IMG/VR virus record: IMGVR_UViG_2648501400_000006
Strand: one strand, 5' to 3'
Source of the DNA: a virus
Taxonomy: Duplodnaviria; Heunggongvirae; Uroviricota; Caudoviricetes
Length of the DNA stretch: 15,134 nt
A program made the translations under genes and the position numbers. The notes under the pieces were generated by a model, which saw only the letters and a program-made list of their open reading frames with translations, did not search any database and was not told where the DNA came from. This document shows, piece by piece, positions 1,282 through 15,134 of the stretch (its first letter is position 1; each line of letters begins with the position of its first letter).

Positions 1282-1627
1282 TTTTCAGAATGCCTTTGAT
1301 GCTGCCCTTGCCGGGGTGGACAGTACGATTGTTGAAGTGATGGGGCTCTGTGCACAGTTCACCTCGGGGGCACAGTGTGGCGGAGAAGTTCAGGGGGTTT
1401 TTGACGATCCGGAGTCGCTGGGATTTGCCGGTAGCGGGGTCCGTATTGAAGGAAGCAGCCCGTCATTATTTGTGCGGACGGATACGGTGCGTGCCGTGCG
1501 GCGTGGTGACACGCTGACCATTAATGGTGAGACATTCTGGGTGGATCGTGTTTCTCCGGATGACGGGGGCAGCTGTTATCTCTGGCTCAACCGTGGGCAA
1601 CCACCCGCCGTTAACCGGCGACGATAA
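1274..1627 (+). CDS. FII: Head-tail joining protein FII-like
   Basis: ATG at 1274 (MRDFQNAFDAALAG…) overlapping FI stop; translation …GVFDDPES…GVR.EGSSPSLFVRTD.VR..RRGDTLTI….FWVDRVSPDDGGSC.LWL.RG.PPAVNRRR closely matches lambda gpFII. Confidence 0.85.
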   Translation: MRDFQNAFDAALAGVDSTIVEVMGLCAQFTSGAQCGGEVQGVFDDPESLGFAGSGVRIEGSSPSLFVRTDTVRAVRRGDTLTINGETFWVDRVSPDDGGSCYLWLNRGQPPAVNRRR

Positions 1628-1642
1628 ACGCAGGGTGAAATT

Positions 1643-2176
1643 ATGGCGATAAAAGGGCTTGAGCAGGCGATTGATAATCTGAGCCGGGTTCGTAAAAACG
1701 CCATTCCGGCGGCTTCTGCAATGACCATTAACCGCGTGGCCACAACGGCGATTAATCAGTCTTCATCACAGGTTGCCCGGGAAACCAGGGTGAACCGGAA
1801 ACTGGTTAAGGAACGGTCCAGACTGAAACGGGCCACGGTCAGAAATCCGAATGCCAGAATTATCGTTAACCGCGGTGATCTCCCGGTGATTAAGCTGGGG
1901 ATCAGGATGCCGGGGCGTCGTCCGGACAGCATACTCAAAGCCGGTCAGCATCGTTATCAGCGGGCATTTATTCAGCGATTAAAAAATGGTCGCTGGCATG
2001 TCATGCAGCGTGTGGTCGGGAAAAACCGTTACCCCATTGATGTGGTGAAAATCCCGATGGCGGCCCCACTGAAACAGGCGTTTGATGAGAATGTTGACCG
2101 TATCCGGCGTGAACGTCTGCCCGGAGAACTGGCATACGCGCTGAAACAACAACTGAGGATTGCGATAAAACGATGA
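1643..2176 (+). CDS. Z: Tail completion protein Z-like
   Basis: 177 aa; N-terminus MAIKGLEQA..NLSR… and C-terminus …AFIQ.LKNGRWHVMQRV.GKNRYPIDVVKIPMA.PL…RIRRERLP.EL.YAL..QLR..IKR match lambda gpZ; ATGA start/stop overlap with U. Confidence 0.85.
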   Translation: MAIKGLEQAIDNLSRVRKNAIPAASAMTINRVATTAINQSSSQVARETRVNRKLVKERSRLKRATVRNPNARIIVNRGDLPVIKLGIRMPGRRPDSILKAGQHRYQRAFIQRLKNGRWHVMQRVVGKNRYPIDVVKIPMAAPLKQAFDENVDRIRRERLPGELAYALKQQLRIAIKR

Positions 2177-2568
2177 AACATACTGATATCCGTGCTGCAG
2201 TGCTGGATGCACTGGAGCTGCATGAACACGGGGCGACGCTGTTTGATGGTCGCCCCGTTGTTTTTGACGAAGAGGATTTTCCCGCGGTCGCGGTTTATCT
2301 GACGGATGCAGAGTATACCGGTGAAGAGCTGGATGCAGATACCTGGCGGGCCACACTGCATATTGAAGTGTTCCTACCGGCACAGGTACCGGATTCAGAG
2401 CTGGATTCGTGGATGGAAACCCGGATTTATCCGGCGATGACCGCGATCCCGGCACTGGCAGACATGATTACCACGATGGTTAAGCAGGGCTATGACTATC
2501 GTCGTGATGACGATATGGCGTTATGGAGCTCTGCAGATCTGACTTATTCCATTACATACGAGATGTGA
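2173..2568 (+). CDS. U: Tail tube terminator protein U-like
   Basis: 131 aa; [74 protein letters not shown]…YDYRRDDD…[13 protein letters not shown] is near-identical in pattern to lambda gpU. Confidence 0.9.
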
Positions 2569-2575
2569 GGACGAT

Positions 2576-3295
2576 ATGCCAACACCAAATCCCCTGGAGC
2601 CGGTAAAAGGTGCCGGTACCACCCTGTGGGTTTACAACGGCAAGGGTGACGCCTATGCAAACCCGTTGTCAGACGATGACTGGCAGCGACTGGCTAAGGT
2701 GAAGGATCTGACGCCGGGCGAGATGACGGCAGAACCCTACGATGATAACTACCTGGATGATGAAGACGCGGACTGGACCGCGACCGGGCAGGGACAGAAA
2801 TCTGCAGGAGATACCAGTTTTACACTGGCCTGGAAACCGGGAGAAGAAGGTCAGAAAGGGCTTATAGGCTGGTTTGAAAGCGGGGATGTGCGGGCCTATA
2901 AAATCCGTTTTCCGAACGGCACGGTGGATGTGTTTCGTGGCTGGATCAGCAGTATCGGTAAGGCAGTGACGGCGAAAGAAGTGATCACCCGAACAGTGAA
3001 AGTGACCAACGTGGGCAAACCTTCCGTAGCGGAAGAACGCAGCAAAATTACGCCGGCCACTGCAATTAAGGTGACACCGACATCCGGTACCGTGGAAAAA
3101 GGAAAAACAACCACCCTGACGGTTTCTTTTGAGCCGGAAAGTGCAACCGACAAGACGTTCAGAGCGGTTTCCGCCGATCCGTCAAAAGCAACCATTACTG
3201 TGAAAGATATGACAATCACGGTAAACGGCGTGAAGACAGGAAAAGTGCAGTATCCCCGTGATGACCGGAAATGGTCAGTTCGCCACAGTAGCTGA
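2576..3295 (+). CDS. V: Major tail tube protein V-like; last ~13 codons out of the ancestral frame (apparent 1-nt insertion near 3251)
   Basis: GAGGA RBS at 2567-2571. 239-aa ORF matches lambda gpV ([68 protein letters not shown]…[42 protein letters not shown]…) up to …TITVNGV.TGKV, then ends [14 protein letters not shown]. The shifted frame 3249-3329 encodes [26 protein letters not shown], which resembles the lambda gpV C-terminus (…[21 protein letters not shown]). Confidence 0.85.
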
Positions 3296-3342
3296 AGTCA
3301 CCGTTACTGAAGCGGGCGCTGCAGGGTAAACGGAGGTAATAC

Positions 3343-3774
3343 ATGTTTCTGAAAACAGAACAATTTGAATATAACGGTGTGTCCGTCACGCTTTCCGAAT
3401 TGTCTGCGCTGCAGCGTATTGAGCATCTTGCCCTCCTGAAACGGCGTGCAGAACAGGCAGAATCCAGCGGCAACCTGCAGGTAAGCGTGGAAGATCTCGT
3501 CAGAACCGGCGCGTTTCTGGTGGCGATGTCCCTGTGGCATAACCATCCGCAGAAAACGGCATCACCGTCAATGAATGAGGCCGTGATGCAGATCGAACAG
3601 GAAGTCCTCACCACCTGGCCTGCGGATGCCATTGCCCGGGCGGAAGATGTGGTGTTGCGTCTGTCCGGGATGAGCGGGCCTGTTCATGCGGATACGGACA
3701 GCACCGAAGTGGCGAAAAATAACGCGCTGACTGATGATGATTTTTCTGCGGGAAAGTCTTCGACGGCGAGCTGA
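3343..3774 (+). CDS. G: Tail assembly chaperone G
   Basis: GGAGG RBS at 3329-3335; 143 aa MFLKTE.FE.NGV.VTLSELSALQRIEHLAL.KR.AEQAES…TGAFLVAMSLWHNHPQKT…SMNEAV.QIEQEVLTTWP… matches lambda gpG. Confidence 0.9.
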   Translation: MFLKTEQFEYNGVSVTLSELSALQRIEHLALLKRRAEQAESSGNLQVSVEDLVRTGAFLVAMSLWHNHPQKTASPSMNEAVMQIEQEVLTTWPADAIARAEDVVLRLSGMSGPVHADTDSTEVAKNNALTDDDFSAGKSSTAS

Positions 3775-4214
3775 ATTTTGCCCTCAGACTGGCGCGTGAG
3801 ATGGGGAGGCCTGACTGGCGCGCCATGCTTGCCGGGATGACATCCACCGAATATGCCGACTGGCGACATTTTTACCGCACGCATTATTTTCACGATACCC
3901 AACTGGATATGCATTTTTCCGGGCTGACGTACGCCGTACTCAGCCTGTTTTTTTGCGATCCGGATATGCATCCCTCTGATTTCAGTCTGCTTGCCCCCCG
4001 GCATGAGGAAGAGCAGACGGAGAGGCCGGATGAGGAAAAAATGCTGATGCAGAAAGCGGCAGGACTTGCCGGAGGCGTCCGGTTCGGTGGGGACGGAGGG
4101 CGCGAGATTTTATCGTCTGCGGATGTGGCGGATGTCAGCGAGGATGATGCCGCATTAATGATGGCTTCAGCGGGGATTCCCGGAGGTGTGAGATATGTCC
4201 CAGCCGGTTGGTGA
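3343..4214 (+). CDS. T: Tail assembly chaperone G-T fusion made by programmed -1 ribosomal frameshift at 3750-3756
   Basis: The T-frame (frame 0) has no own start/RBS and is open from the slippery site to TGA 4212-4214; its translation (…MGRPDWRAMLAGM.STEYADW..FY.THYFHD..LDMHFSGLTY.VLSLFF.DPDMHP.DFSLL…LMQKAAGLAGGVRFG…) matches lambda gpT. Slippery heptamer G-GGA-AAG sits in the G zero frame 19 nt before the G stop. Confidence 0.8.
3750..3756 (+). promoter_or_regulatory. -1 programmed ribosomal frameshift slippery heptamer GGGAAAG (G/G-T)
   Basis: Sequence GCG GGA AAG with GGA and AAG as in-frame G codons (codon start 3751 is in frame with the G ATG at 3343); same heptamer and relative position as the lambda G-T frameshift site. 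Confidence 0.75.
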
Positions 4215-6775
4215 TCTTGTTATTGACCTGAGTCTGGATGCGGTCCGTTTCGATGAGCAGATGAGCCGGGTAAGGCGTCATTTTTCAGGACTGGAGACCG
4301 ACGCCAGAAAAACCGCCAGTGCTGTTGAACAGAACCTGAGCCGCCAGGCGCTGGCTGCACAAAAAGCCGGGATTTCCGTCGGGCAGTATAAAGCGGCCAT
4401 GCGAACCCTGCCCGCACAGTTTACGGATATCGCCACGCAGCTTGCCGGTGGTCAGAATCCCTGGCTGATCCTGCTGCAACAGGGCGGTCAGGTGAAGGAC
4501 TCCTTCGGCGGGATGATCCCCATGTTCAGGGGGCTTGCCGGTGCGATCACCCTGCCGATGGTCGGGGTCACCTCGCTGGCGGTGGCGACAGGTGCGCTGG
4601 CGTACGCCTGGTACCAGGGAGATTCCACGCTTTCAGCGTTTAATAAAACCCTGGTTCTTTCCGGTAATCAGTCCGGACTGACTGCCGATCGCATGCTGAC
4701 GCTCTCAAGAGCCGGACAGGCAGCAGGGCTGACGTTTAACCAGGCGAGAGAGTCACTGGCAGCCCTGGTGAATGCCGGTGTGCGTGGTGGTGAACAGTTT
4801 GATGCCATCAACCAGAGTGTCGCGCGTTTTGCGTCTGCATCCGGTGTGGAGGTGGACAAAGTCGCAGAAGCCTTCGGAAAACTGACCACCGACCCGACGT
4901 CGGGACTGATGGCGATGGCGCGCCAGTTCCGTAACGTGACGGCAGAGCAGATTGCGTATGTTGCACAGCTGCAGCGTTCCGGAGACGAGGCCGGGGCATT
5001 ACAGGCGGCGAACGATATCGCCACGAAAGGCTTTGATGAGCAGACCCGTCGCCTGAAAGAAAACATGGGAACACTGGAGACCTGGGCGGATAAAACAGGG
5101 AAGGCATTCAAATCGATGTGGGATGCCATTCTGGATATCGGTCGTCCTGAGTCCTCAGCGGATATGCTCGCCAGTGCACAGAAGGCATTTGATGAGGCGG
5201 ATAAAAAATGGCAGTGGTACCAGAGCCGGAGCCAGCGCCGCGGAAAAACCGCCTCTTTCCGGGCCAACCTTCAGGGCGCATGGAATGACCGGGAAAATGC
5301 CCGTCTGGGGCTGGCAGCGGCCACGCTGCAGTCGGATATGGAAAAAGCCGGTGAACTGGCCGCCAGGGACCGGGCCGAACGGGACGCATCACAGCTGAAG
5401 TATACCGGAGAGGCGCAGAAGGCGTATGAGCGTCTGCTGACGCCGCTGGAGAAATATACCGCCCGTCAGGAAGAACTGAATAAGGCACTGAAAGACGGGA
5501 AAATCCTGCAGGCAGATTACAACACGCTGATGGCGGCGGCGAAAAAGGACTATGAAGCGACGCTGAAAAAGCCGAAACAGTCAGGAGTCAAAGTGTCAGC
5601 CGGCGAGCGTCAGGAAGACCAGTGCGCATGCTGCCCTGCTGACGCTTCAAACAGAACTCCGGACGCTGGAAAAACACACCGGAGCGAATGAGAAAATCAG
5701 CCAGCAGCGTCGCGATTTATGGAAAGCGGAAAATCAGTATGCGGTCCTGAAAGAGGCAGCCACGAAACGGCAGTTATCTGAGCAGGAAAAATCCCTGCTG
5801 GCCCATGAGAAAGAGACGCTGGAGTACAAACGCCAGCTGGCTGAGCTGGGAGACAAAGTTGAACACCAGAAACGGCTGAATCAGCTGGCACAGCAGGCTG
5901 CGCGGTTTGAACAGCAGCAGAGCGCGAAGCAGGCGGCAATCAGCGCAAAAGCCCGCGGACTCACCGACCGTCAGGCGCAGCGGGAGTCGGAAGAGCAGCG
6001 CCTTCGTGACGTGTACGGTGATAATCCGGATGCGCTGGCGAAGGCCACATCTGCACTGAAGAACACCTGGTCTGCGGAGGAGCAGCTTCGTGGAAGCTGG
6101 ATGGCCGGTCTGAAGTCCGGCTGGGGCGAGTGGGCAGAAAGTGCGACGGACAGTTTTTCGCAGGTTAAAAGCGTGGCCACGCAGACCTTTGACGGTATTG
6201 CACAGAATATGGCAGCGATGCTGACCGGCAGCGAACAGAACTGGCGTGGTTTCACCCGTTCTGTGCTCTCCATGCTGACAGAGATTTTTCTGAAGCAGGC
6301 GATGGTGGGGATAGTCGGGAGTATCGGCAGCGCCATTGGCGGTGCTTTCGGTGGTGGTGCGTCTGCCTCCACGGGGACGGCCATTCAGGCTGCGGCGGCG
6401 AACTTCCATTTCGCGACCGGGGGATTTACGGGGACGGGGGGTAAATATGAACCTGCGGGAATTGTTCATCGCGGGGAGTTTGTCTTCACGAAGGAGGCAA
6501 CCAGCCGGATTGGCGTCGGCAACCTGTATCGTCTGATGCGCGGGTATGCGGAAGGTGGTTATGTGGGCGGTGCCGGAAGTCCGGCGCAGATGCGGCGGGC
6601 GGAAGGCATTAGTTTTAATCAGAACAATCACGTGGTGATTCAGAACGACGGTATCAACGGACAGGCAGGGCCGCAGCTGATGAAAGCGGTGTATGACATG
6701 GCCCGCAAGGGGGCGCAGGATGAGATTCAGGCGCAGATGCGTGATGGCGGCGTATTTTCCGGAGGCAGGCGATGA
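4195..6775 (+). pseudogene. H: Tail tape-measure protein H-like, split by an apparent +1 frameshift near 5619-5620 (N-part frame 1: 4195-5691; C-part frame 2: about 5567-6775)
   Basis: GGAGGTG RBS at 4179-4185. The 4195 ORF matches lambda gpH from the N-terminus (…VGDLV.DLSLDA.RFDEQM.RVRRHFSG…GISVGQYKAAMR.LPAQFTD.ATQLAGGQ.PWLILLQQGGQVKDSFGGMIPMFRGLAGAITLPMVG…) through …KKPKQS.VKVSAG.RQED, then reads QCACCPADASNRTPDAGKTHRSE*. Frame 2 from 5621 reads SAHAALLTLQ.ELRTLEKH.GANEKISQQRRDLWKAENQ… and continues through …AGIVHRGEFVFTKEATSRIGVGNLYRLMRGYA.GGYVG… to TGA 6773-6775, matching the lambda gpH continuation. Removing one C at 5619/5620 (GAAGAC[C]AGTGCG) restores one ORF of ~859 aa. Frame 2 has a stop at 5564-5566, so the switch must lie in 5567-5691. 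Confidence 0.75.
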
Positions 6776-7101
6776 AAACCTTTCGCTGGAAAGTGAAGCC
6801 GGATATGGAGGTGAACTCGCAGCCGTCGGTGCGTGAAGTGCGTTTTGGTGACGGGTATTCGCAGCGTATGGCTGCGGGGCTGAATGCTGACCTGAAAACA
6901 TACCGTGTGACGCTTTCCGTGACCCGGGAGGAGGCCCGACATTTGGAGGCGTTCCTGGCAGAGCACGGTGGCTGGAAGGCGTTTCTGTGGACACCGCCTT
7001 ATGCCTGGCGGCAGATAAAGGTGACCTGTGCCGCCTGGTCATCACGGGTTCGCATGCTGCGGGTTGAATTCAGTGCCGAGTTTAAGCAGGTGGTGAACTG
7101 A
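6772..7101 (+). CDS. M: Tail tip assembly protein M-like
   Basis: 109 aa, the lambda gpM size; GGAGG RBS at 6756-6760; ATGA overlap with the H stop; positioned between H and L. Confidence 0.9.
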   Translation: MKTFRWKVKPDMEVNSQPSVREVRFGDGYSQRMAAGLNADLKTYRVTLSVTREEARHLEAFLAEHGGWKAFLWTPPYAWRQIKVTCAAWSSRVRMLRVEFSAEFKQVVN

Positions 7102-7799
7102 TGCAGGATATTCACGAAGAAAGTCTGAACGAGTCGGTTAAATCAGAGCAGTCACCGCGGGTGGTACTCTGGGAAATCGACCTGACGGTACAGGGTGGTG
7201 AGCGGTATTTTTTCTGCAATGAGCTGAATGAAAAAGGGGAGGCGGTTACCTGGCAGGGGCGGCAATATCAGGCATACCCGATTGACGGCAGTGGCTTTGA
7301 GATGAACGGGAAGGGCAGCAGTGCCAGACCGTCGCTGACGGTGTCCAATCTGTTTGGTCTGGTCACCGGGATGGCGGAGGACCTGCAGAGCCTGGTGGGG
7401 GCCACGGTGGTCCGCCGCCGGGTGTATGCCCGTTTTCTGGATGCGGTGAATTTTGTGGCAGGCAATCCGGAAGCGGACCCGGAGCAGGAGCTGAGCGACC
7501 GCTGGGTGGTGGAGCAGATGTCAGAGCTGACGGCCATGACGGCCTCGTTTGTGCTGGCGACACCGACCGAGACGGACGGGGCGCTGTTTCCTGGTCGCAT
7601 CATGCTGGCGAACACCTGTATGTGGGATTACCGGGGAGATGAATGCGGGTATAACGGTCCTGCGGTGGCGGATGAGTTCGACAACCCCACCACGGATATC
7701 CGTAAGGACAGATGCAGCAAGTGCATGCGCGGGTGTGAGATGCGCGGCATGGTGGCTAATTTTGGCGGTTTCCTTTCCATTAACAAACTTTCGCAGTAA
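7101..7799 (+). CDS. L: Tail tip protein L-like
   Basis: 232 aa, the lambda gpL size; TGATG overlap with the M stop; conserved Cys-rich C-terminus (…CMWDYRGDECGYNGPAVADEFDNPT.DI.KD.CSKC…) as I recall for gpL. Confidence 0.9.
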   Translation: MQDIHEESLNESVKSEQSPRVVLWEIDLTVQGGERYFFCNELNEKGEAVTWQGRQYQAYPIDGSGFEMNGKGSSARPSLTVSNLFGLVTGMAEDLQSLVGATVVRRRVYARFLDAVNFVAGNPEADPEQELSDRWVVEQMSELTAMTASFVLATPTETDGALFPGRIMLANTCMWDYRGDECGYNGPAVADEFDNPTTDIRKDRCSKCMRGCEMRGMVANFGGFLSINKLSQ

Positions 7800-7804
7800 A
7801 TCCA

Positions 7805-8483
7805 ATGACACAGACAGAATCAGCGATTCTGGCGCATGCCCGGCGGTGTGTGCCTGCGGAGTCGTGCGGCTTCGTGGTGAGAACGCCGGAGGGGGAGCGG
7901 TATATCCCTTGTGTGAATATCTCTGCAGAGCCGGAGGCGTATTTTCGTATTGCACCGGAAGACTGGCTGCGGGCAGAGATGCAGGGGGAGATTGTGGCAC
8001 TGGTCCACAGTCATCCCGGTGGTCTGCCGGGGGGAAATTCATAAATTCCGCTGTGTACCACATCTGACAGGACGGCGCTTTGAGCACGGGGTGACGGACT
8101 GTTACACGCTGTTCCGGGATGCCTACCATCTGGCGGGAATTGATATGCCGGATTTTGAGCGTGAGGATGACTGGTGGCGCAACGGTCAGAACCTTTACCT
8201 GGACAATATGGCGGTCACCGGCTTTTACCGGGTGCCCCTGTCCTCTGCACAGGCGGGCGATATCCTGCTGTGCTGCTTTGGCGCATCGGTGGCCAATCAT
8301 GCCGCCATTTACTGCGGCAACGGTGAACTGCTTCACCATCTGCCTGAACAACTGAGTAAACGGGAGAGGTATTCCGAAAAATGGCAACGACGAACGCATT
8401 CTGTCTGGCGTCACCGCCACTGGCACGCATCTGCCTTCACGGGGATTTGCAACGATTTGGCCGCCGCCTCAGCCTGTATGTGA
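7805..8483 (+). pseudogene. K: Tail tip assembly protein K-like (MPN/JAMM + NlpC/P60), disrupted: N-part frame 2 (7805-8044, stop TAA 8042-8044), C-part frame 0 (about 8028-8483)
   Basis: 7805 ORF: MTQTESAILAHARRC.PAESCGFVV.TPEGERY.PCVNIS.EPEA…EDWL.AEMQGEIVALVHSHPGGLP then GGNS*. Frame 0 from ~8028: RGEIHKFRCVPHLTGRRFEHGVTDCYTLFRDAYHLAGI.MPDF.REDDWWRNGQNLYLDN…LLCCFG.SV.NHAAIYCG.GELLHH.PEQLSKRERY..KWQRRTHS.WRHR.W.ASAFTGI.NDL.AAS… ending TGA 8481-8483 and overlapping I by 103 nt. The HxH of a JAMM motif is present but the expected downstream S-x-x-D is missing; the junction coincides with a G6 run (8029-8034). From memory of lambda K, about 22 codons are absent, implying a ~65-bp out-of-frame deletion. 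Confidence 0.65.
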
Positions 8484-9251: not shown

Positions 9252-9779
9252 TTATTGAATGATGCCGCAGGCCATTCTCGCACCACCACCGCCCAGGGAC
9301 TCCGGATGGTCATGATGGTTATCACCGCCAGCATGAAGCATGAGAGAACGCCCTTTAATCTCTTTTAATGAGTTCAGTCTCGGGGCCAGGACCGGGTAGT
9401 TCGCTTTTCCGTCATGCGTCACGAACAGCGCAGGGAGGTCGCCCAGGTGTCCATCCGGAGACCAGGGGCCAAGATGTTTGCCGGTGTTTTTCGGGTCAAA
9501 GTGACCGCCAGCCGATAATGCTGCGACCGGTTTTCCGTCTTTCAGTGCCGGGGCGCAATTTCCTTTTTCGTGCACATGAAAACCATGAATGCCTTCAGAC
9601 AGAGAGTGAAGGGCTGGTGTGAACAGCAGACCGTAGGGGGTCTCCTGAATGGTTATTTTTCCAATGCTGACTTCTTTTCCGTCAGCACTGACAAGGTTCA
9701 TTGGGACTTCCTGTTCTGCTGCGTATCCGCATGATGCTGCTGTCAGCATGGCAATAGCAGCAATGATTTTACATTTCAT
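9252..9779 (-). CDS. sodC: Periplasmic Cu,Zn superoxide dismutase (prophage-encoded SodC)
   Basis: Minus-strand ORF; chosen start is the ATG at 9777-9779 ([20 protein letters not shown]… signal-peptide-like N-terminus) with GAGGA RBS 4 nt upstream. Translation contains hallmark Cu,Zn-SOD motifs (…[22 protein letters not shown]…AGGHFDP..TGKH.GP…[14 protein letters not shown]…APRL.SL.EIKG.SLM.H.GGDN..D.P..LGGGGAR.ACGIIQ). The longer 9252-10286 ORF in the track is an upstream read-through without support. Confidence 0.9.
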
Positions 9780-9912: not shown

Positions 9913-12900
9913 ATGGGCAAAGGTGGCGGCAGGGCGCACACGCCTCGAGAGGCGAAGGATAATCTCAAATCCACGCAGATGATGAGTGTGATTGATGCGA
10001 TTGGTGAGGGACCGATAGAAGGCCCGGTGAAGGGGCTGCAGAGTATCCTGGTGAACAAAACCCCGCTGACGGACACGGACGGCAATCCTGTGATACACGG
10101 TGTGACCGCGGTCTGGCGCGCCGGGGAGCAGGAGCAGACACCACCGGAAGGCTTTGAGTCCTCCGGAGCTGAAACCGGACTGGGCGTGGAAGTGACGAAG
10201 GCAAAGCCGGTAACGCGCACCATTACATCCGCGAACATTGACCGCCTGCGGGTCACCTTCGGGGTGCAGTCACTGTTGGAGACCACCTCAAAGGGCGACC
10301 GTAATCCCTCTTCTGTCCGACTGCTGATTCAGTTGCAGCGTAACGGTAACTGGGTGACGGAAAAGGATGTCACCATTAACGGCAGGACCACCTCACAGTA
10401 CCTGGCGTCGGTGATTCTGGAGAATCTGCCTGAGCGGCCCTTTAACATCCGGATGGTCCGGGAGACAGCGGACAGCACCTCGGACCAGCTGCAGAATAAG
10501 ACGCTCTGGTCGTCATACACCGAAATCATCGATGTGAAACAGTGCTACCCGAACACGGCGATTGTGGGGCTGCAGGTGGATGCGGAGCAGTTTGGCGGTC
10601 AGCAGATGACGGTGAACTACCATATCCGAGGTCGCATCATCCAGGTGCCGTCAAACTATGACCCGGAAAAACGCACGTACAGCGGCATCTGGGACGGCAG
10701 CCTGAAACCGGCATACAGCAACAACCCGGCCTGGTGCCTGTGGGACATGCTGACTCACCCGCGCTACGGCATGGGAAAACGTCTGGGGGCGGCAGACGTG
10801 GACAAATGGGCGCTGTATGCCATCGGGCAGTACTGCGACCAGACGGTCCCGGATGGTTTCGGGGGCACAGAGCCGCGGATGACCTTTAATGCGTACCTGT
10901 CACAACAGCGTAAGGCATGGGATGTGCTCAGTGATTTCTGCTCGGCGATGCGATGTATGCCGGTATGGAACGGCCAGACGCTGACGTTCGTTCAGGACCG
11001 CCCGTCGGATGTGGTGTGGCCGTACACCAACTGCGATGTGGTGGTGGATGATAACGGCGTGGGGTTTCGCTACAGCTTCAGCGCCCTGAAGGACCGCCAC
11101 ACGGCGGTGGAGGTGAATTACACCGACCCGCAGAACGGCTGGCAGACCTCCACGGAACTGGTGGAAGACCCGGAAGCCATACTGCGCTACGGGCGCAACC
11201 TGCTGAAGATGGATGCGTTCGGTTGCACCAGTCGCGGTCAGGCCCACCGTGCCGGGCTGTGGGTGATAAAGACCGGACTGCTGGAAACGCAGACGGTGGA
11301 TTTCACGCTCGGGTCACAGGGGCTGCGTCACACACCCGGTGACATTATTGAAATCTGTGATAACGACTATGCCGGGACCATGACCGGCGGACGTATCCTG
11401 TCCATCGATGCCGCCAGCCGCACCCTGACACTGGACCGTGAGGTGACCCTGCCGGAGACAGGTGCCGCCACGGTGAACCTGATTAACGGCAGCGGTAAGC
11501 CGGTGAGCGTGGCCATCACTGCACACCCCGCGCCGGACCGGATACAGGTCAGCACCCTGCCTGATGGTGTGGAGACATACGGTGTATGGGGACTCTCCCT
11601 GCCGTCACTACGTCGTCGCCTGTTCCGCTGTGTCTCCATCCGGGAAAACACGGACGGCACCTTTGCCATCACGGCGGTGCAGCACGTACCGGAAAAAGAA
11701 GCCATTGTGGATAACGGGGCCAGCTTTGAGCCACTGTCCGGTTCGCTGAACAGCGTCATCCCGCCGGCTGTGCAGCACCTGACGGTGGAGGTGAGCGCGG
11801 CTGACGGTCAGTATCTGGCACAGGCGAAATGGGACACGCCGCGGGTGGTGAAGGGTGTGCGCTTCAGTCTGCGCCTGACCAACGGAAGCGGAGAAGACAG
11901 CCGTCTGGTGACCACCGCCATCACTGCGGATACAGAGCATCGTTTCAGTGGTCTGCCGCTCGGGGAATACACCCTGACAGTCAGGGCAATTAACAGTTAT
12001 GGCCAGCAGGGCGAACCGGCCACCACCACCTTCCGGATTAACGCGCCAGCAAAACCCGCCACCATTGAACTGACGCCGGGGTATTTTCAGATAACGGCGG
12101 TCCCGCGTCTTGCGGTGTATGACCCGACGGTACAGTTTGAGTTCTGGTTTTCGGAGGCAAAAATCGCAGACACATCTCAGGTGGAAACCTCTGCCCGTTA
12201 TCTGGGGACCGGCAGTCAGTGGAGTGTATCCGGCCCGCACATTAAGCCCGGGAAGGATTTCTGGTTTTACGTGCGCAGCGTCAACCTGGTGGGGAAATCT
12301 GCGTTTGTGGAAGTCAGCGGGCAGCCCAGCAATGATGGTGAAGGGTATCTGGAATTTTTCCGGGAAAAAATAGGAAAACTGCATCTGGCTCAGGGGCTAT
12401 GGGAGCTGATAGACAACAGCCAGCTTGCGGATGAGATGGCGGAGATGAAGACCACCATCACCGAAACCCGCAATGAAATCACACAGACGGTCAGTAAAAC
12501 GCTGGAAGACCAGAGCGCCACCATTCAGCAGATACAGCGCGTGCAGAAGGACACAAATGATGACCTGGCTGCGCTGTACATGCTGAAGGTTCAAAAAACG
12601 AAAGACGGCATTCCCTATGTGGCCGGGATTGGTGCAGGGATTGAGGATACTGATGGCCAGCCACTGAGCAACATACTGCTGCTGGCTGACCGTATCGCGA
12701 TGATAAATCCGGAGAGCGGCAACAGCACTCCGTTATTTGTGGCGCAGGGGAATCAGCTGTTCATGAACGACGTGTTCCTGAAGCGTCTGTTTGCGGCGAG
12801 TATCACGTCATCCGGCAACCCCCCGACGTTTTCCCTGACGCCGGAAGGGAAGCTGACAGCCAGGAACGCGGATATCAGCGGAGCAATTACCGCGAATACC

Positions 12901-13389
12901 GGCACGCTCAATAATGTCACCATTAACGAGAACTGTGTCATCAGAGGGAAACTGTCTGCAAACCAGATTGAAGGCGACCTGGTGAAGACGGTGGGGAAAG
13001 CCTTTCCCCGGAATAACAGTTATGCCAGCGGGACGGTAACCGTCACAGTTTACGATGACCAGGGCTTCGACCGGCAGATTATCATTCCCCCGGTGCTGTT
13101 TCGCGGGACGAAACACCAGAATTTCAACAGCCCGAATCAGCAGTCGTACTGGTATTCCACCTGTAAGCTGCAGGTGCTGAAGAACGGGGTTGAGATTTTC
13201 CATGAACCGGCAACGGATGTCAGCCGGGTGTTCTCATCGGTGATAGATATGCCGGCAGGGCGGGGTCATGTCACCCTGACGTTTAATGTGTCGTCGGCCG
13301 GTGCGAACAACTGGACGCCGACAACGTACATCAGTGATTTACTGGTTGTGGTCATGAAAAAATCCACGGCAGGGATCAGTATCAGCTGA
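9913..13389 (+). CDS. J: Tail tip / host-specificity protein J-like (central tail fibre)
   Basis: 1158 aa; GAGAGGAA RBS at 9901-9908; N-terminus MGKG…[35 protein letters not shown]… and long stretches (…[52 protein letters not shown]…[34 protein letters not shown]…[32 protein letters not shown]…[17 protein letters not shown]…) match lambda gpJ; the C-terminal ~150 aa diverge. Confidence 0.9.
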
Positions 13390-13408
13390 CGGTTTATTAA
13401 CCCGGACG

Positions 13409-13432
13409 GGCACCTCAGGAGGTGCCTTTTTT
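13409..13432 (+). terminator. Intrinsic terminator after J (stem 13409-13415/13420-13426, loop CAGG, T6 at 13427-13432)
   Basis: GGCACCT-CAGG-AGGTGCC-TTTTTT read directly, 20 nt after the J stop. Confidence 0.6.
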
Positions 13433-13457
13433 ATTGACTGAAAACAAAGAGGTAATC

Positions 13458-14081
13458 ATGCGGCATTTATACGCAACGATATTATTGTTTACTACCCTGC
13501 TGGCAGGAATTGCCTTTCCTGCACAGGCTGAAAGCGGACACGGTGCATTTTCCGTGGGATATGCTCAGGTTCACCCGGGCGGCGTACCGGCATTGTCCGG
13601 TACCGGTGCGCGTGCAGGTGATTTAAAAGGGATTAATGTGAAATACCGTTATGAGTTCACGGATCACCTGGGCGGCATTGTCGCGCTGAGTTATGCATCG
13701 GTGAAGAAAAGTGACACGATGAAGACGGGTGAAAATACCTTCCATTATGAAAGCCTGCGCGGTCGTTATGTCAGTCTGATGGCCGGCCCTGTCTGGCAGC
13801 TCAGTGAGCGGGTCAGTCTCTATGGCATGGCCGGGATGGCGTACACCCGCTGGTCTGACAGTGTTCAGGATTACCGGCGTGATGAAGTGAAACCGGGGTA
13901 TGTGAAGGAGACCACCACCGCCAGTGATGGTCATACTGCGCGTCATCTGTCGCCGGCCTGGAATGCCGGGATTCAGTTCAGTCCCGTAGAGACGGTGGTT
14001 ATTGACCTTGCTTATGAAGGTTCCGGCAGTGGCGACTGGCGCACTGACGGTTTCATCGTGGGTGTCGGCTATAAATTCTGA
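13458..14081 (+). CDS. lom: Lom outer-membrane protein (Ail/Lom/PagC family)
   Basis: ATG at 13458 with GAGG RBS (13448-13451); signal peptide MRHLYATILLFTTLLAGIAFPAQA; …GINVKYRYEFTD.LG…MAGP…YEGSGSGDWRTDGFIVGVGYKF matches lambda Lom including the identical C-terminus. The upstream GTG at 13422 lies inside the J terminator and was not chosen. Confidence 0.9.
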   Translation: MRHLYATILLFTTLLAGIAFPAQAESGHGAFSVGYAQVHPGGVPALSGTGARAGDLKGINVKYRYEFTDHLGGIVALSYASVKKSDTMKTGENTFHYESLRGRYVSLMAGPVWQLSERVSLYGMAGMAYTRWSDSVQDYRRDEVKPGYVKETTTASDGHTARHLSPAWNAGIQFSPVETVVIDLAYEGSGSGDWRTDGFIVGVGYKF

Positions 14082-14107
14082 TTAGCCAGGTAACACAGTG
14101 TTATGAC

Positions 14108-14134
14108 AGCCCGCCGGTTCAGGCGGGCTTTTTT
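14108..14134 (+). terminator. Intrinsic terminator after lom (stem AGCCCGCC/GGCGGGCT, loop GGTTCA, T-tract 14130-14134)
   Basis: Perfect 8-bp GC-rich inverted repeat followed by TTTTT(T), 27 nt after the lom stop. Confidence 0.6.
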
Positions 14135-14145
14135 GTGGGGTGAAT

Positions 14146-15134
14146 ATGGCAGTAAAGATTTCAGGTGTACTGAAAGACGGCACAGGAAAACCGGTACAGA
14201 ACTGCACCATTCAACTGAAAGCCAGACGGACCAGCACCACGGTGGTGGTGAACACGCTGGCCTCAGAAAATCCGGATGAAGCCGGGCGTTACAGCATGGA
14301 CGTTGAGTACGGTCAGTACAGCGTTATTCTGTTGGTGGAAGGGTTCCCGCCGTCACATGCCGGGACCATCACCGTGTATGAAGATTCTCAACCCGGTACG
14401 CTGAATGATTTTCTCGGTGCCATGACGGAGGAGGATGCCCGGCCGGAGGCACTGCGCCGTTTTGAACAGATGGTGGAAGAGGTGGCGCGTCACGCTGAGG
14501 AGGCGAAGAAGAATGCCGGAGAGGCGGAGACGTCAGCGAGGAATGCCGGCATATCAGCCAGTCAGGCAGAAGAGAGCGCTGCAAATGCTGACACTTCAGC
14601 AGGGGAGGCATCGGAGTCAGCCCGGCAGGCGGCAGAAAGTGCAGCCTCAGCAAAGCAGTCAGAGGATGCGTCCTCGTCCTCGGCTTCTGCGGCCGCTCAA
14701 AAAGCCAGTGAGTCATCACAAAGTGCAGCAGAAGCTGAATTGTCAAGAAAGACGGCAGAAAGTGCAGCCGGTAATGCAGCCAGGGATGCAACGACCGCAA
14801 CAGAAAAAGCCCGGGAGTCAGCAGAAAGCGCACAGTCAGCGGAACAAAGCAGGATAGCGGCGGAAGAGGCCGTAAACCGAATCCCCACCGTGGTGGGACC
14901 TCCCGGGCCAAAGGGGGAACAGGGGCCCGCGGGTCCTCAGGGGCCGAAGGGTGATAAGGGAGAGCGCGGTGACACCGGCCCTGTCGGGGCAACCGGCGAA
15001 CGGGGACCGGCAGGTGATGCTGGTCCGGCAGGCCCGCAGGGGCCGAAAGGTGACAGGGGAGAGCGGGGAGAGACCGGTCTGACGGGAAATGCAGGTCCAC
15101 AGGGTCCAAAGGGAGATACCGGTGCGGCAGGCCC
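14146..15134 (+). CDS. stf: Side tail fibre protein Stf-like, 3'-truncated by window edge; carries collagen-like Gly-X-Y repeats
   Basis: Translated by hand (not in the ORF track because no stop lies within the window): [111 protein letters not shown]… is near-identical to the lambda Stf N-terminus; followed by an Ala/Ser/Glu-rich low-complexity segment and, from 14896, [79 protein letters not shown]…. Confidence 0.85.
14896..15134 (+). repeat. Collagen-like triplet repeat (GGN-NNN-NNN)n coding region inside stf
   Basis: At least 26 consecutive Gly-X-Y triplets in frame with stf, continuing to the window end; this also creates the long Pro-rich shadow ORF on the opposite strand (14369-15109). 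Confidence 0.85.

What the first reader, a model, noticed from the sequence alone, without database searches (positions are those of the whole stretch)
5567..5691. Tape-measure gene H split by a single-nucleotide (+1) frameshift
Both halves are individually lambda gpH-like, but they sit in frames 1 and 2. The switch point is localisable to GAAGAC[C]AGTGCG at 5619-5620; deleting one C gives the expected …RQEDSAHAALLTLQ.ELRTLEKH… continuity. A broken tape-measure protein would abolish tail assembly, implying a defective prophage unless this is a sequencing or assembly error. The site is not a long homopolymer, which argues mildly against a typical homopolymer read error.
Basis: partly seen in the sequence, partly recalled or inferred. 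Interest (0 to 1): 0.5.

Follow-up and report, generated by a model that had tools for sequence, protein, structure and literature searches.

The report
Assembly-made frameshift in tape-measure gene
The one-base break in the phage tail tape-measure gene is in the deposited sequence, but it is a computer-made blend of two intact gene copies from the same genome, not a mutation.

Summary
The lambda-H-like tape-measure gene reads as two pieces, 4195-5691 and a second frame open 5567-6775. There is one surplus base in GAC-C-AG-T-GCG (5619-5623).

The biological reading does not hold. The window is a whole draft contig, JHSW01000103.1. Between about 1489/2367 and 6240 it is not the sequence of a real molecule. 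At 87 of 90 sites where two intact relatives (L011, L018) differ, the window has the alphabetically lower base (A<C<G<T). This holds in all six base-pair classes (p=2e-22). Controls run about 50:50, and the bias stops after 6260.

The two allele families differ at the break by compensating one-base indels: GAC CAG GCG versus GAC AGT GCT. The contig keeps both the extra C and the extra T.

I aligned two intact 859-codon H genes (L098, L018) and took the lowest base per column, preferring a base to a gap. This reproduces the frameshift, the exact 498-aa product and its out-of-frame tail. Only 6 differences remain over 2066 nt.

The same mechanism makes a second false frameshift in gene V (3248/3251). 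A sister assembly shows the same signature.

Verdict: collapsed-repeat consensus artefact. It gives no evidence for a defective prophage.

The parts
4195..5691 (+). 5' piece of the tape-measure gene H as deposited. It is 498 aa, and the last 23 aa (QCACCPADASNRTPDAGKTHRSE) are out-of-frame read-through.
   Evidence: Pfam TMP_2. The exact product occurs only on this contig and one sister-assembly contig.
5567..6775 (+). 3' piece of H in the other frame. It is open from 5567; gene callers start it at 6011 or 6101.
   Evidence: Pfam Tape_meas_lam_C.
5619..5623 (+). The frame-switch site, C-C-A-G-T. The contig carries both the C of the GAC CAG GCG allele type and the T of the GAC AGT GCT (lambda) allele type, which adds one net base.
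   Evidence: Three-way comparison, allele survey, lambda alignment, in-silico reproduction.
1489..6240 (.). Block in which the contig is a column-wise merge of two diverged prophage copies, with the alphabetically lowest base chosen. It is clear from about 2367 and possibly starts at 1489. It covers genes Z(part)-U-V-G-T and most of H.
   Evidence: Over the 500-nt bins 2501-6000, mismatches to the five nearest relatives total 397 window-lower against 16 window-higher. Flanking bins are balanced and have relatives with 0 mismatches. Against L098 there are 104 mismatches, 99 window-lower. For L011/L018 the count is 87 of 90, p=2e-22.
3248..3251 (+). A second false +1 frameshift of the same origin, near the 3' end of major tail gene V (2576-3295). 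V reads as 239 aa here but 250 aa in both parental types.
   Evidence: L098 lacks the base at 3251 and L109 lacks the base at 3248; the window keeps both.
3750..3756 (+). GGGAAAG slippery heptamer at the end of G (3343-3774), ahead of T (3801-4214). This is context: the genuine lambda-type G-T -1 programmed frameshift site, unrelated to the H break.
   Evidence: motif position; Phage_TAC_2 and Phage_tail_T. The role of GGGAAAG in lambda G-T is established knowledge and was not tested here.

Best explanation
The frameshift was made by genome assembly. The sequenced strain most likely carries two lambdoid prophages whose tail genes are 95-97% identical. That there are two copies in one genome is inferred. 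The assembler collapsed the two copies into one contig across about 1489/2367-6240. At every column where they differ it wrote the base that comes first in the order A, C, G, T, and it wrote a base where one copy had a gap. This behaves like a deterministic tie-break between two equally weighted sequences. At codons 476-477 of H the two allele families read GAC CAG GCG and GAC AGT GCT. An aligner renders this difference as two compensating one-base gaps: GAC[C]AG[-]GC against GAC[-]AG[T]GC. Keeping a base over a gap in both columns gives GACCAGTGCG, one base too many. H then appears split into a 498-aa piece and a C-terminal piece. Both underlying H genes are expected to be intact 859-codon ORFs. 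The merge rule, its extent and its sufficiency to produce the frameshift are shown. Which software step did it, and that the two copies sit in one genome rather than in a mixed culture, are inferred.
For: (1) In 4195-6260 the window carries the alphabetically lower base at 87 of 90 sites where L011 (Q-type) and L018 (S-type) differ, binomial p=2e-22. One of the three exceptions, 5620, is created by the alignment at the indel. The counts by class are AC 13, AG 30, AT 7, CG 8, CT 19 and GT 10. Nine control sequences give 33-54 'min' against 35-48 'max'. In 6261-6775 the window gives 20:25.
(2) The best pair under a 'minimum' rule cuts mismatches from 63 to 36. A 'maximum' rule gives no gain (62). 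Neither rule helps for seven control targets.
(3) Along the whole contig the bias is confined to one block. Bins 2501-6000 give 65:0, 99:1, 33:1, 60:3, 43:2, 17:2 and 80:7. Outside the block the counts are balanced and relatives with 0 mismatches exist.
(4) min(L098, L018) equals the window with 0 residuals over 5001-5600 and 1 residual over 5601-6260. min(L098, L109) leaves 1 residual over 2301-3300, against 46 and 48 for each alone and 91 under the 'max' rule.
(5) In-silico reproduction: two intact 859-codon H genes were aligned to each other without reference to the window, and the lowest base per column was taken with base over gap. The result is 2581 nt, with the same +1 and the same 498-aa product ending QCACCPADASNRTPDAGKTHRSE*. 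It differs from the window at 6 positions in 4195-6260.
(6) The only other indel difference between the parents inside the block (3248/3251 in V) is resolved the same way and makes a second frameshift.
(7) The sister contig JHTA01000061.1 equals L098 outside patches. Inside patches it is always the lower base (for example 14:0, 14:0, 10:0, 14:0). It has the identical H blend.
(8) The exact junction was not found in any H homologue in viral, metagenome or representative-genome collections; the five hits of a 21-mer were unrelated. No listed E. coli complete-genome match carries the extra base.
Against: No reads were available, so double coverage and the absence of reads spanning GACCAGTGCG were not observed directly. 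The exact parental alleles of this strain are not in hand. Four or five sites in the block (1795, 2379, 3963, 4533, 5801) do not follow the rule relative to L098, and I attribute them to L098 not being the exact parent. The same 498-aa product occurs in two assemblies, which on its face looks like inheritance. A deterministic rule applied to the same two prophages explains this too. I could not identify the assembler or confirm that it breaks ties alphabetically. The resolution could also have happened downstream, for example ambiguity codes replaced by their first base.
Confidence: 0.95

Rival explanations
1. A real one-base insertion (C or T) in the tape-measure gene of a resident prophage. 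This would be a pseudogene that makes the prophage unable to build tails.
For: The frameshift is present in the deposited record, and the identical truncated product is in a second assembly whose flanks differ by about 1.5%. Interrupted H genes do occur among relatives: 4 of 57 distinct sequences, at other positions. The K gene of the same contig has a 65-bp out-of-frame deletion.
Against: A real insertion does not explain why the surrounding 4 kb takes the alphabetically lower base at about 97% of variable sites. It does not explain why the sequence is reproduced by merging two intact genes, or why a second +1 sits at the only other compensated-indel site. No intact or broken relative shares the local sequence. 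The four interrupted relatives show no such bias.
Confidence: 0.03
2. A real recombinant allele. Heteroduplex DNA formed between a Q-type and an S-type H gene of two co-resident prophages was repaired in short patches, and both one-base loops were retained.
For: The window alternates between the two allele types every few bases around the site. Lambdoid tail genes are mosaic, and E. coli genomes carry up to 7 copies of this segment.
Against: Patchy repair has no reason to choose bases by alphabetical order. 87 of 90 choices follow that order across all six base-pair classes. The same rule applies over 4 kb and in a second assembly with different patch boundaries.
Confidence: 0.01
3. A translated two-ORF arrangement: programmed +1 ribosomal frameshifting, or a functionally split tape measure.
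For: The two frames overlap by 125 nt (5567-5691), which would leave room for a shift. The neighbouring G-T pair uses programmed -1 frameshifting (for the motif; its role is established knowledge).
Against: The arrangement is not conserved. None of the 80 closest relatives, nor lambda or PhiR12, has the extra base here. 53 of 57 distinct full-length relatives have a single ORF. I saw no known +1 shift motif on reading the overlap.
Confidence: 0.005
4. A random base-calling error (a single spurious base) in an otherwise correct contig.
For: This is a draft assembly, and one extra base is the smallest possible error.
Against: The site is not a homopolymer. The identical base is present in a second assembly. 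The extra base coincides with a compensated indel between two allele types inside a block of systematic base-order bias.
Confidence: 0.005

Closest known systems
Collapsed-repeat (chimeric consensus) misassembly in draft genomes
   Same: Two near-identical repeat copies, here the tail modules of two lambdoid prophages, are merged into one contig. The consensus is a sequence that exists in neither copy, and spurious frameshifts and pseudogenes result. The contig arms follow different copies: the left arm is identical to L098 over 1-1488, and the J gene is nearly identical to L109.
   Different: The merge follows a strictly deterministic rule (first base in A, C, G, T order, and a base over a gap) rather than a coverage-weighted majority. 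That makes it recognisable without reads and reproducible in two assemblies. I did not find this specific signature described, but my literature search was minimal.
Bacteriophage lambda gpH, the tail length tape-measure protein (Pfam TMP_2 + Tape_meas_lam_C)
   Same: With one base removed, the gene is an 859-aa protein, 79% identical and collinear with lambda H (853 aa). It sits between T and M in a lambda-order tail module.
   Different: As deposited it is in two frames. The deposited nucleotide sequence over most of the gene is a blend of two alleles, so even the repaired protein is not a real allele.
Tape-measure pseudogenes in cryptic or defective lambdoid prophages
   Same: The appearance is the same: a truncated N-terminal ORF plus an orphan C-terminal ORF. 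Four relatives in IMG/VR have H interrupted elsewhere.
   Different: Those four show no base-order bias. Here the break is explained entirely by the merge.
Lambda G-T programmed -1 ribosomal frameshift
   Same: It is in the same gene cluster, about 1.9 kb upstream, and GGGAAAG is present at 3750. It is another place where two tail-gene frames overlap.
   Different: It is a conserved slippery heptamer with a -1 shift. The H site has no slippery motif, would need a +1 shift, and is not conserved in any homologue.

Membership tests
Lambda gpH-type tape-measure protein | N-terminal TMP_2 domain and C-terminal Tape_meas_lam_C domain | tested here: met
   Precomputed Pfam hits: PF06791 on the 498-aa piece and PF09718 on the C-terminal piece.
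Lambda gpH-type tape-measure protein | Full-length collinear similarity to lambda H | tested here: met
   79% identity over 859 against 853 aa after removing one base. Nucleotide identity is 80-83%.
Lambda gpH-type tape-measure protein | Position between tail chaperone genes G/T and tail-tip genes M/L | tested here: met
   Gene order E-FI-FII-Z-U-V-G-T-H-M-L-K-I-(sodC)-J-lom-stf, the same as lambda and PhiR12.
Lambda gpH-type tape-measure protein | One uninterrupted ORF of about 850-860 codons | tested here: not met
   The record has two frames. This failure is attributed to the assembly. Relatives L098, L109, L018, L011 and L106 all have 859 aa.
Collapsed-repeat consensus artefact | The sequence is a column-wise function of two real sequences and matches neither | tested here: met
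   min(L098, L018) and min(L098, L109) leave 0-1 residuals per 600-1000 nt, against 9-48 for single sequences. De novo reproduction.
Collapsed-repeat consensus artefact | A non-biological choice rule at variable sites (base-order bias in all substitution classes) | tested here: met
   87 of 90, p=2e-22, across all six classes. Controls are about 50:50.
Collapsed-repeat consensus artefact | The signature is confined to a block, with flanks matching real sequences | tested here: met
   bias only in about 2001-6000. There are 0-mismatch relatives in bins such as 1-1000, 6501-7500, 11001-11500 and 12501-15000.
Collapsed-repeat consensus artefact | About twofold read depth and two read haplotypes over the block | not testable with these tools
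   No reads are available.
Programmed ribosomal frameshift site | The two-frame arrangement is conserved in homologues | tested here: not met
   0 of 80 IMG/VR relatives have the extra base. 53 of 57 distinct full-length relatives have a single ORF.
Programmed ribosomal frameshift site | A recognisable shift-prone motif in the overlap | tested here: not met
   I read 5567-5691. There is no X XXY YYZ heptamer at the switch, and no prfB-like CUU UGA or SD-spaced +1 site. This was visual inspection only.
Prophage pseudogene (real inactivating mutation) | The lesion is present on real DNA molecules of the strain | not testable with these tools
   This needs reads or resequencing. The indirect evidence speaks against it.

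The most novel reading that the evidence does not exclude
The alphabetical tie-break merge may not be limited to this contig. It may be a systematic product of the pipeline behind this batch of GenBank E. coli drafts (JHSW/JHTA and neighbouring accessions) and possibly other projects. If so, public databases hold synthetic hybrid prophage genes and false pseudogenes wherever a strain carries two similar prophages. These can be detected without reads, because mismatches to nearest relatives are almost all in the direction 'query base earlier in the alphabet'.
Probability: 0.55. Interest if true: 0.3.

Novelty: not a real feature. Interest (0 to 1): 0.07.

Why it matters
It removes a false lead. 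This contig gives no evidence that the prophage has lost its tape measure, and strain-level claims about prophage integrity or inducibility should not rest on it. More generally, multi-prophage E. coli drafts can contain blended in-silico alleles. These inflate pseudogene counts, create 'novel' alleles and fake fine-scale recombination mosaics. The base-order asymmetry test used here is a cheap, read-free way to flag them. There is no new biology.

Tried and rejected
- I looked for the same junction elsewhere. A 27-mer and a 21-mer across the site were searched in genome contigs, viral contigs and metagenome contigs. The only hits were five unrelated chance matches with no homology to the window.
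- I looked for an intact parent carrying the same local sequence. I searched C-deleted and T-deleted 160-mers, the 97 nt downstream of the site, and a 39-mer. The best identity was 92.5-93.8% in 5,426 complete E. coli genomes, and IMG/VR gave nothing. I first read this as an unusual allele; it is what a synthetic blend predicts.
- I tried to decide by parsimony which base (C or T) was inserted. The question is moot, because each base comes from a different allele.
- I considered patchy mismatch repair of a heteroduplex as the source of the fine mosaic. I rejected it once the choice at each site proved to be alphabetical.
- I considered programmed +1 frameshifting and rejected it for lack of conservation and lack of a motif.
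- I searched papers for the accession prefixes to identify strain and assembler and found none. A general misassembly search gave nothing specific.
- I tested whether the four relatives with interrupted H carry the same signature. They do not.

Full report
**What the window is.** The 15,134-base window is identical to a complete draft contig, JHSW01000103.1 of assembly GCA_001266175.1. Cluster members of its H product are named as E. coli proteins by their sources. The contig carries a lambda-order head-tail module: E (cut), FI, FII, Z, U, V, G, T, H, M, L, K, I, a minus-strand Cu/Zn superoxide dismutase gene, J, lom and the start of a side tail fibre gene. This order comes and matches lambda and phage PhiR12_1.

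**Checking the observation.**
- The H homologue starts at 4195 and reads in one frame to a stop at 5689-5691, giving 498 aa.
- The other frame has its last stop at 5564-5566 and is open from 5567 to 6775.
- The finding's coordinates, 5567-5691, are therefore exactly the interval where the frame must change.
- Alignment to lambda places one surplus base at GAAGAC[C]AGTGC.
- Alignment to the closest relatives places it at GACCAG[T]GCG.
- Deleting either base gives an 859-aa ORF that is 79% identical to lambda gpH over its full length.
The localisation to 'the C' is only one of two equivalent descriptions.

**Is the split seen elsewhere?**
- All 40 listed matches to 5470-5770 in complete E. coli genomes (out of 3,655 genomes with a match) span 300 nt against the query's 301. 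The best is 95.7% identical.
- None of the 80 closest H loci from IMG/VR has the extra base. They read CAG-GCG, CTG-ACG, CGG-GCG or AGT-GCT.
- Exact-pattern scans of the viral, metagenome and representative-genome collections found only unrelated chance hits.
- The exact 498-aa product exists on one other contig, JHTA01000061.1 of GCA_001266255.1 (L003).
- That contig differs from the window by 121 substitutions over 8 kb, but by only 3 between 3251 and 6250.
- At this stage the finding looked like a real, inherited allele.

**The turning point.** The window around the site alternates every few bases between the two allele types. Listing every site where a Q-type relative (L011) and an S-type relative (L018) differ showed that the window always takes the base that comes first in the alphabet.
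- Between 4195 and 6260 this holds at 87 of 90 sites (p=2e-22). For the sister contig it is 89 of 90.
- Of the window's three exceptions, one (5620) is created by the alignment at the indel. The other two (4533, 5801) are sites where the window and the sister contig differ.
- The rule holds in all six base-pair classes: A over C 13, A over G 30, A over T 7, C over G 8, C over T 19, G over T 10.
- Nine control sequences scored against the same pair give 33-54 against 35-48.
- The window itself gives 20:25 downstream of 6260.
- A search over all pairs of relatives shows that a 'minimum' rule cuts mismatches from 63 to 36, while a 'maximum' rule does nothing. Neither rule helps for seven control targets.
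- No mutational or recombinational process selects bases by alphabetical order. A program breaking ties does.

**Extent of the signature.**
- I compared each 500-nt bin of the contig with its five nearest relatives among 163 loci. The bias is confined to one block. Bins 2501-6000 give 65:0, 99:1, 33:1, 60:3, 43:2, 17:2 and 80:7 (window lower : window higher).
- Bins outside the block are balanced and often have a relative with zero mismatches.
- Against L098, an IMG/VR prophage contig with an intact 859-codon H, the window is identical over 1-1488. It then shows 104 substitutions up to 5923, 99 of them 'window lower', plus two one-base gaps in L098 at 3251 and 5623.

**Exact reconstruction.**
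- Taking the lower base of L098 and L018, with a base preferred to a gap, reproduces the window with 0 residuals over 5001-5600 and 1 residual (5801) over 5601-6260.
- L098 with L109 leaves 1 residual over 2301-3300. Each alone leaves 46 and 48, and the 'max' rule leaves 91.
- At the frameshift, L098 reads GAC C AG - GCG and L018 reads GAC - AG T GCT. The window has both the C and the T.
- As an independent test I aligned the two intact H genes to each other with megablast, without the window, and applied the rule. The product is 2581 nt. It has the same +1 and the same first stop after 498 aa, with the identical tail ...QEDQCACCPADASNRTPDAGKTHRSE*. It differs from the window at only 6 positions in 4195-6260.
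- With an aligner that leaves the site ungapped (blastn scoring) no frameshift arises. So the artefact needs the two-gap rendering of CAG GCG against AGT GCT.

**Corroboration.**
- Inside the block there is one other place where the parental types differ by compensating one-base indels, at 3248/3251 near the end of gene V. The window again keeps both bases. V reads 239 aa with an aberrant tail, while both parental types have 250 aa.
- The sister contig L003 equals L098 (0-1 mismatches per 500 nt) except in two patches, at window coordinates about 25-2000 and about 3025-6000. In those patches every difference to L098 is 'contig lower', for example 14:0, 14:0, 6:0, 14:0, 10:0, 10:0, 4:0 and 14:0.
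- Two assemblies thus show the same rule with different patch limits. This explains why they share the 'allele': a deterministic rule applied to the same pair of prophages gives the same blend.

**What is really there (inferred).** The strain most likely has two lambdoid prophages with 95-97% identical tail modules, one L098-like and one with a lambda-like (S-type) central H segment and an L109-like V and J. Each probably has an intact H and V. The contig's left arm follows the first prophage, its right arm follows the second, and the middle is a blend. A mixed culture would give the same picture. I could not identify the assembler. The tie could also have been resolved downstream, for example ambiguity codes replaced by their first base. 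Either way the block is not a real molecule.

**Rivals.**
- A real insertion, or a patch-repaired recombinant, cannot explain the alphabetical rule.
- Programmed +1 frameshifting is excluded by the lack of conservation and the absence of a motif.
- A random base-call error is excluded by recurrence in the sister assembly and by the context.
- Four relatives have H interrupted elsewhere but show no base-order bias. Genuine or other-cause interruptions exist, and they are a different thing.

**Verdict.** This is a collapsed-repeat consensus artefact. There is no new biology. The value lies in removing a false pseudogene call and in a simple read-free diagnostic. Direct proof needs the reads: two haplotypes, double depth, and no read with GACCAGTGCG.

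Noticed in passing
window 3248-3251 (gene V, 2576-3295): A second false +1 frameshift of the same origin. One parental type lacks the base at 3248 and the other lacks the base at 3251; the contig keeps both. V reads 239 aa with the tail ...[18 protein letters not shown], instead of 250 aa ending ...VTVTEAGAAG.
   Followed up: yes
window 8020-8028 (gene K, 7805-8044 and onward): The contig lacks 65 bp that the sister contig L003 and every relative covering the site have. The deletion lies between two copies of the 9-bp repeat TGGTCTGCC. It shifts the frame of K and removes part of the JAB/MPN motif region (HSHPGGLPWLSEADRR...). It lies outside the biased block, so it may be a real deletion in the second prophage or another assembly fault.
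   Followed up: partly
window 10629-11983 (gene J): Against L109, which is otherwise nearly identical across J, all 14 substitutions in this stretch have the window carrying the alphabetically lower base (14:0). This is probably a second, smaller collapsed patch (bin 10501-11000 gives 31:9).
   Followed up: partly
whole window, compared with L098, L109 and L003: The contig appears to be a chimera of two prophages. Positions 1-1488 are identical to L098, while J (10001-13000) is nearly identical to L109 and clearly unlike L098. The sister contig L003 follows L098 throughout. This accounts for the 97-98.5% identity between the two contigs.
   Followed up: partly
window 3750-3756, G 3343-3774, T 3801-4214: The lambda-type GGGAAAG slippery heptamer is present near the end of G, upstream of T. 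This is the expected G-T programmed -1 frameshift arrangement. It lies inside the blended block but appears intact.
   Followed up: no
window 9252-9779 (minus strand), 13458-14081: A Cu/Zn superoxide dismutase gene (Pfam Sod_Cu) sits on the opposite strand between I and J, and a lom-type outer-membrane protein gene follows J. These are prophage cargo genes. The sister contig has both too, whereas PhiR12_1 has different inserts, between L and K.
   Followed up: no
L093, L116, L160, L073 (IMG/VR relatives): Four of 57 distinct full-length H homologues are interrupted at other positions; their first ORFs are 161, 620, 236 and 587 aa. None shows the alphabetical bias, so they are real pseudogenes or errors of another kind.
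   Followed up: partly
H codons 476-477 across relatives (window 5620-5626): The allele families read CAG GCG (Q-A), CGG GCG (R-A), CTG ACG (L-T) or AGT GCT (S-A). The Q and S versions can be related either by three substitutions or by a pair of compensating one-base indels. That ambiguity is what tripped the assembler's aligner.
   Followed up: yes
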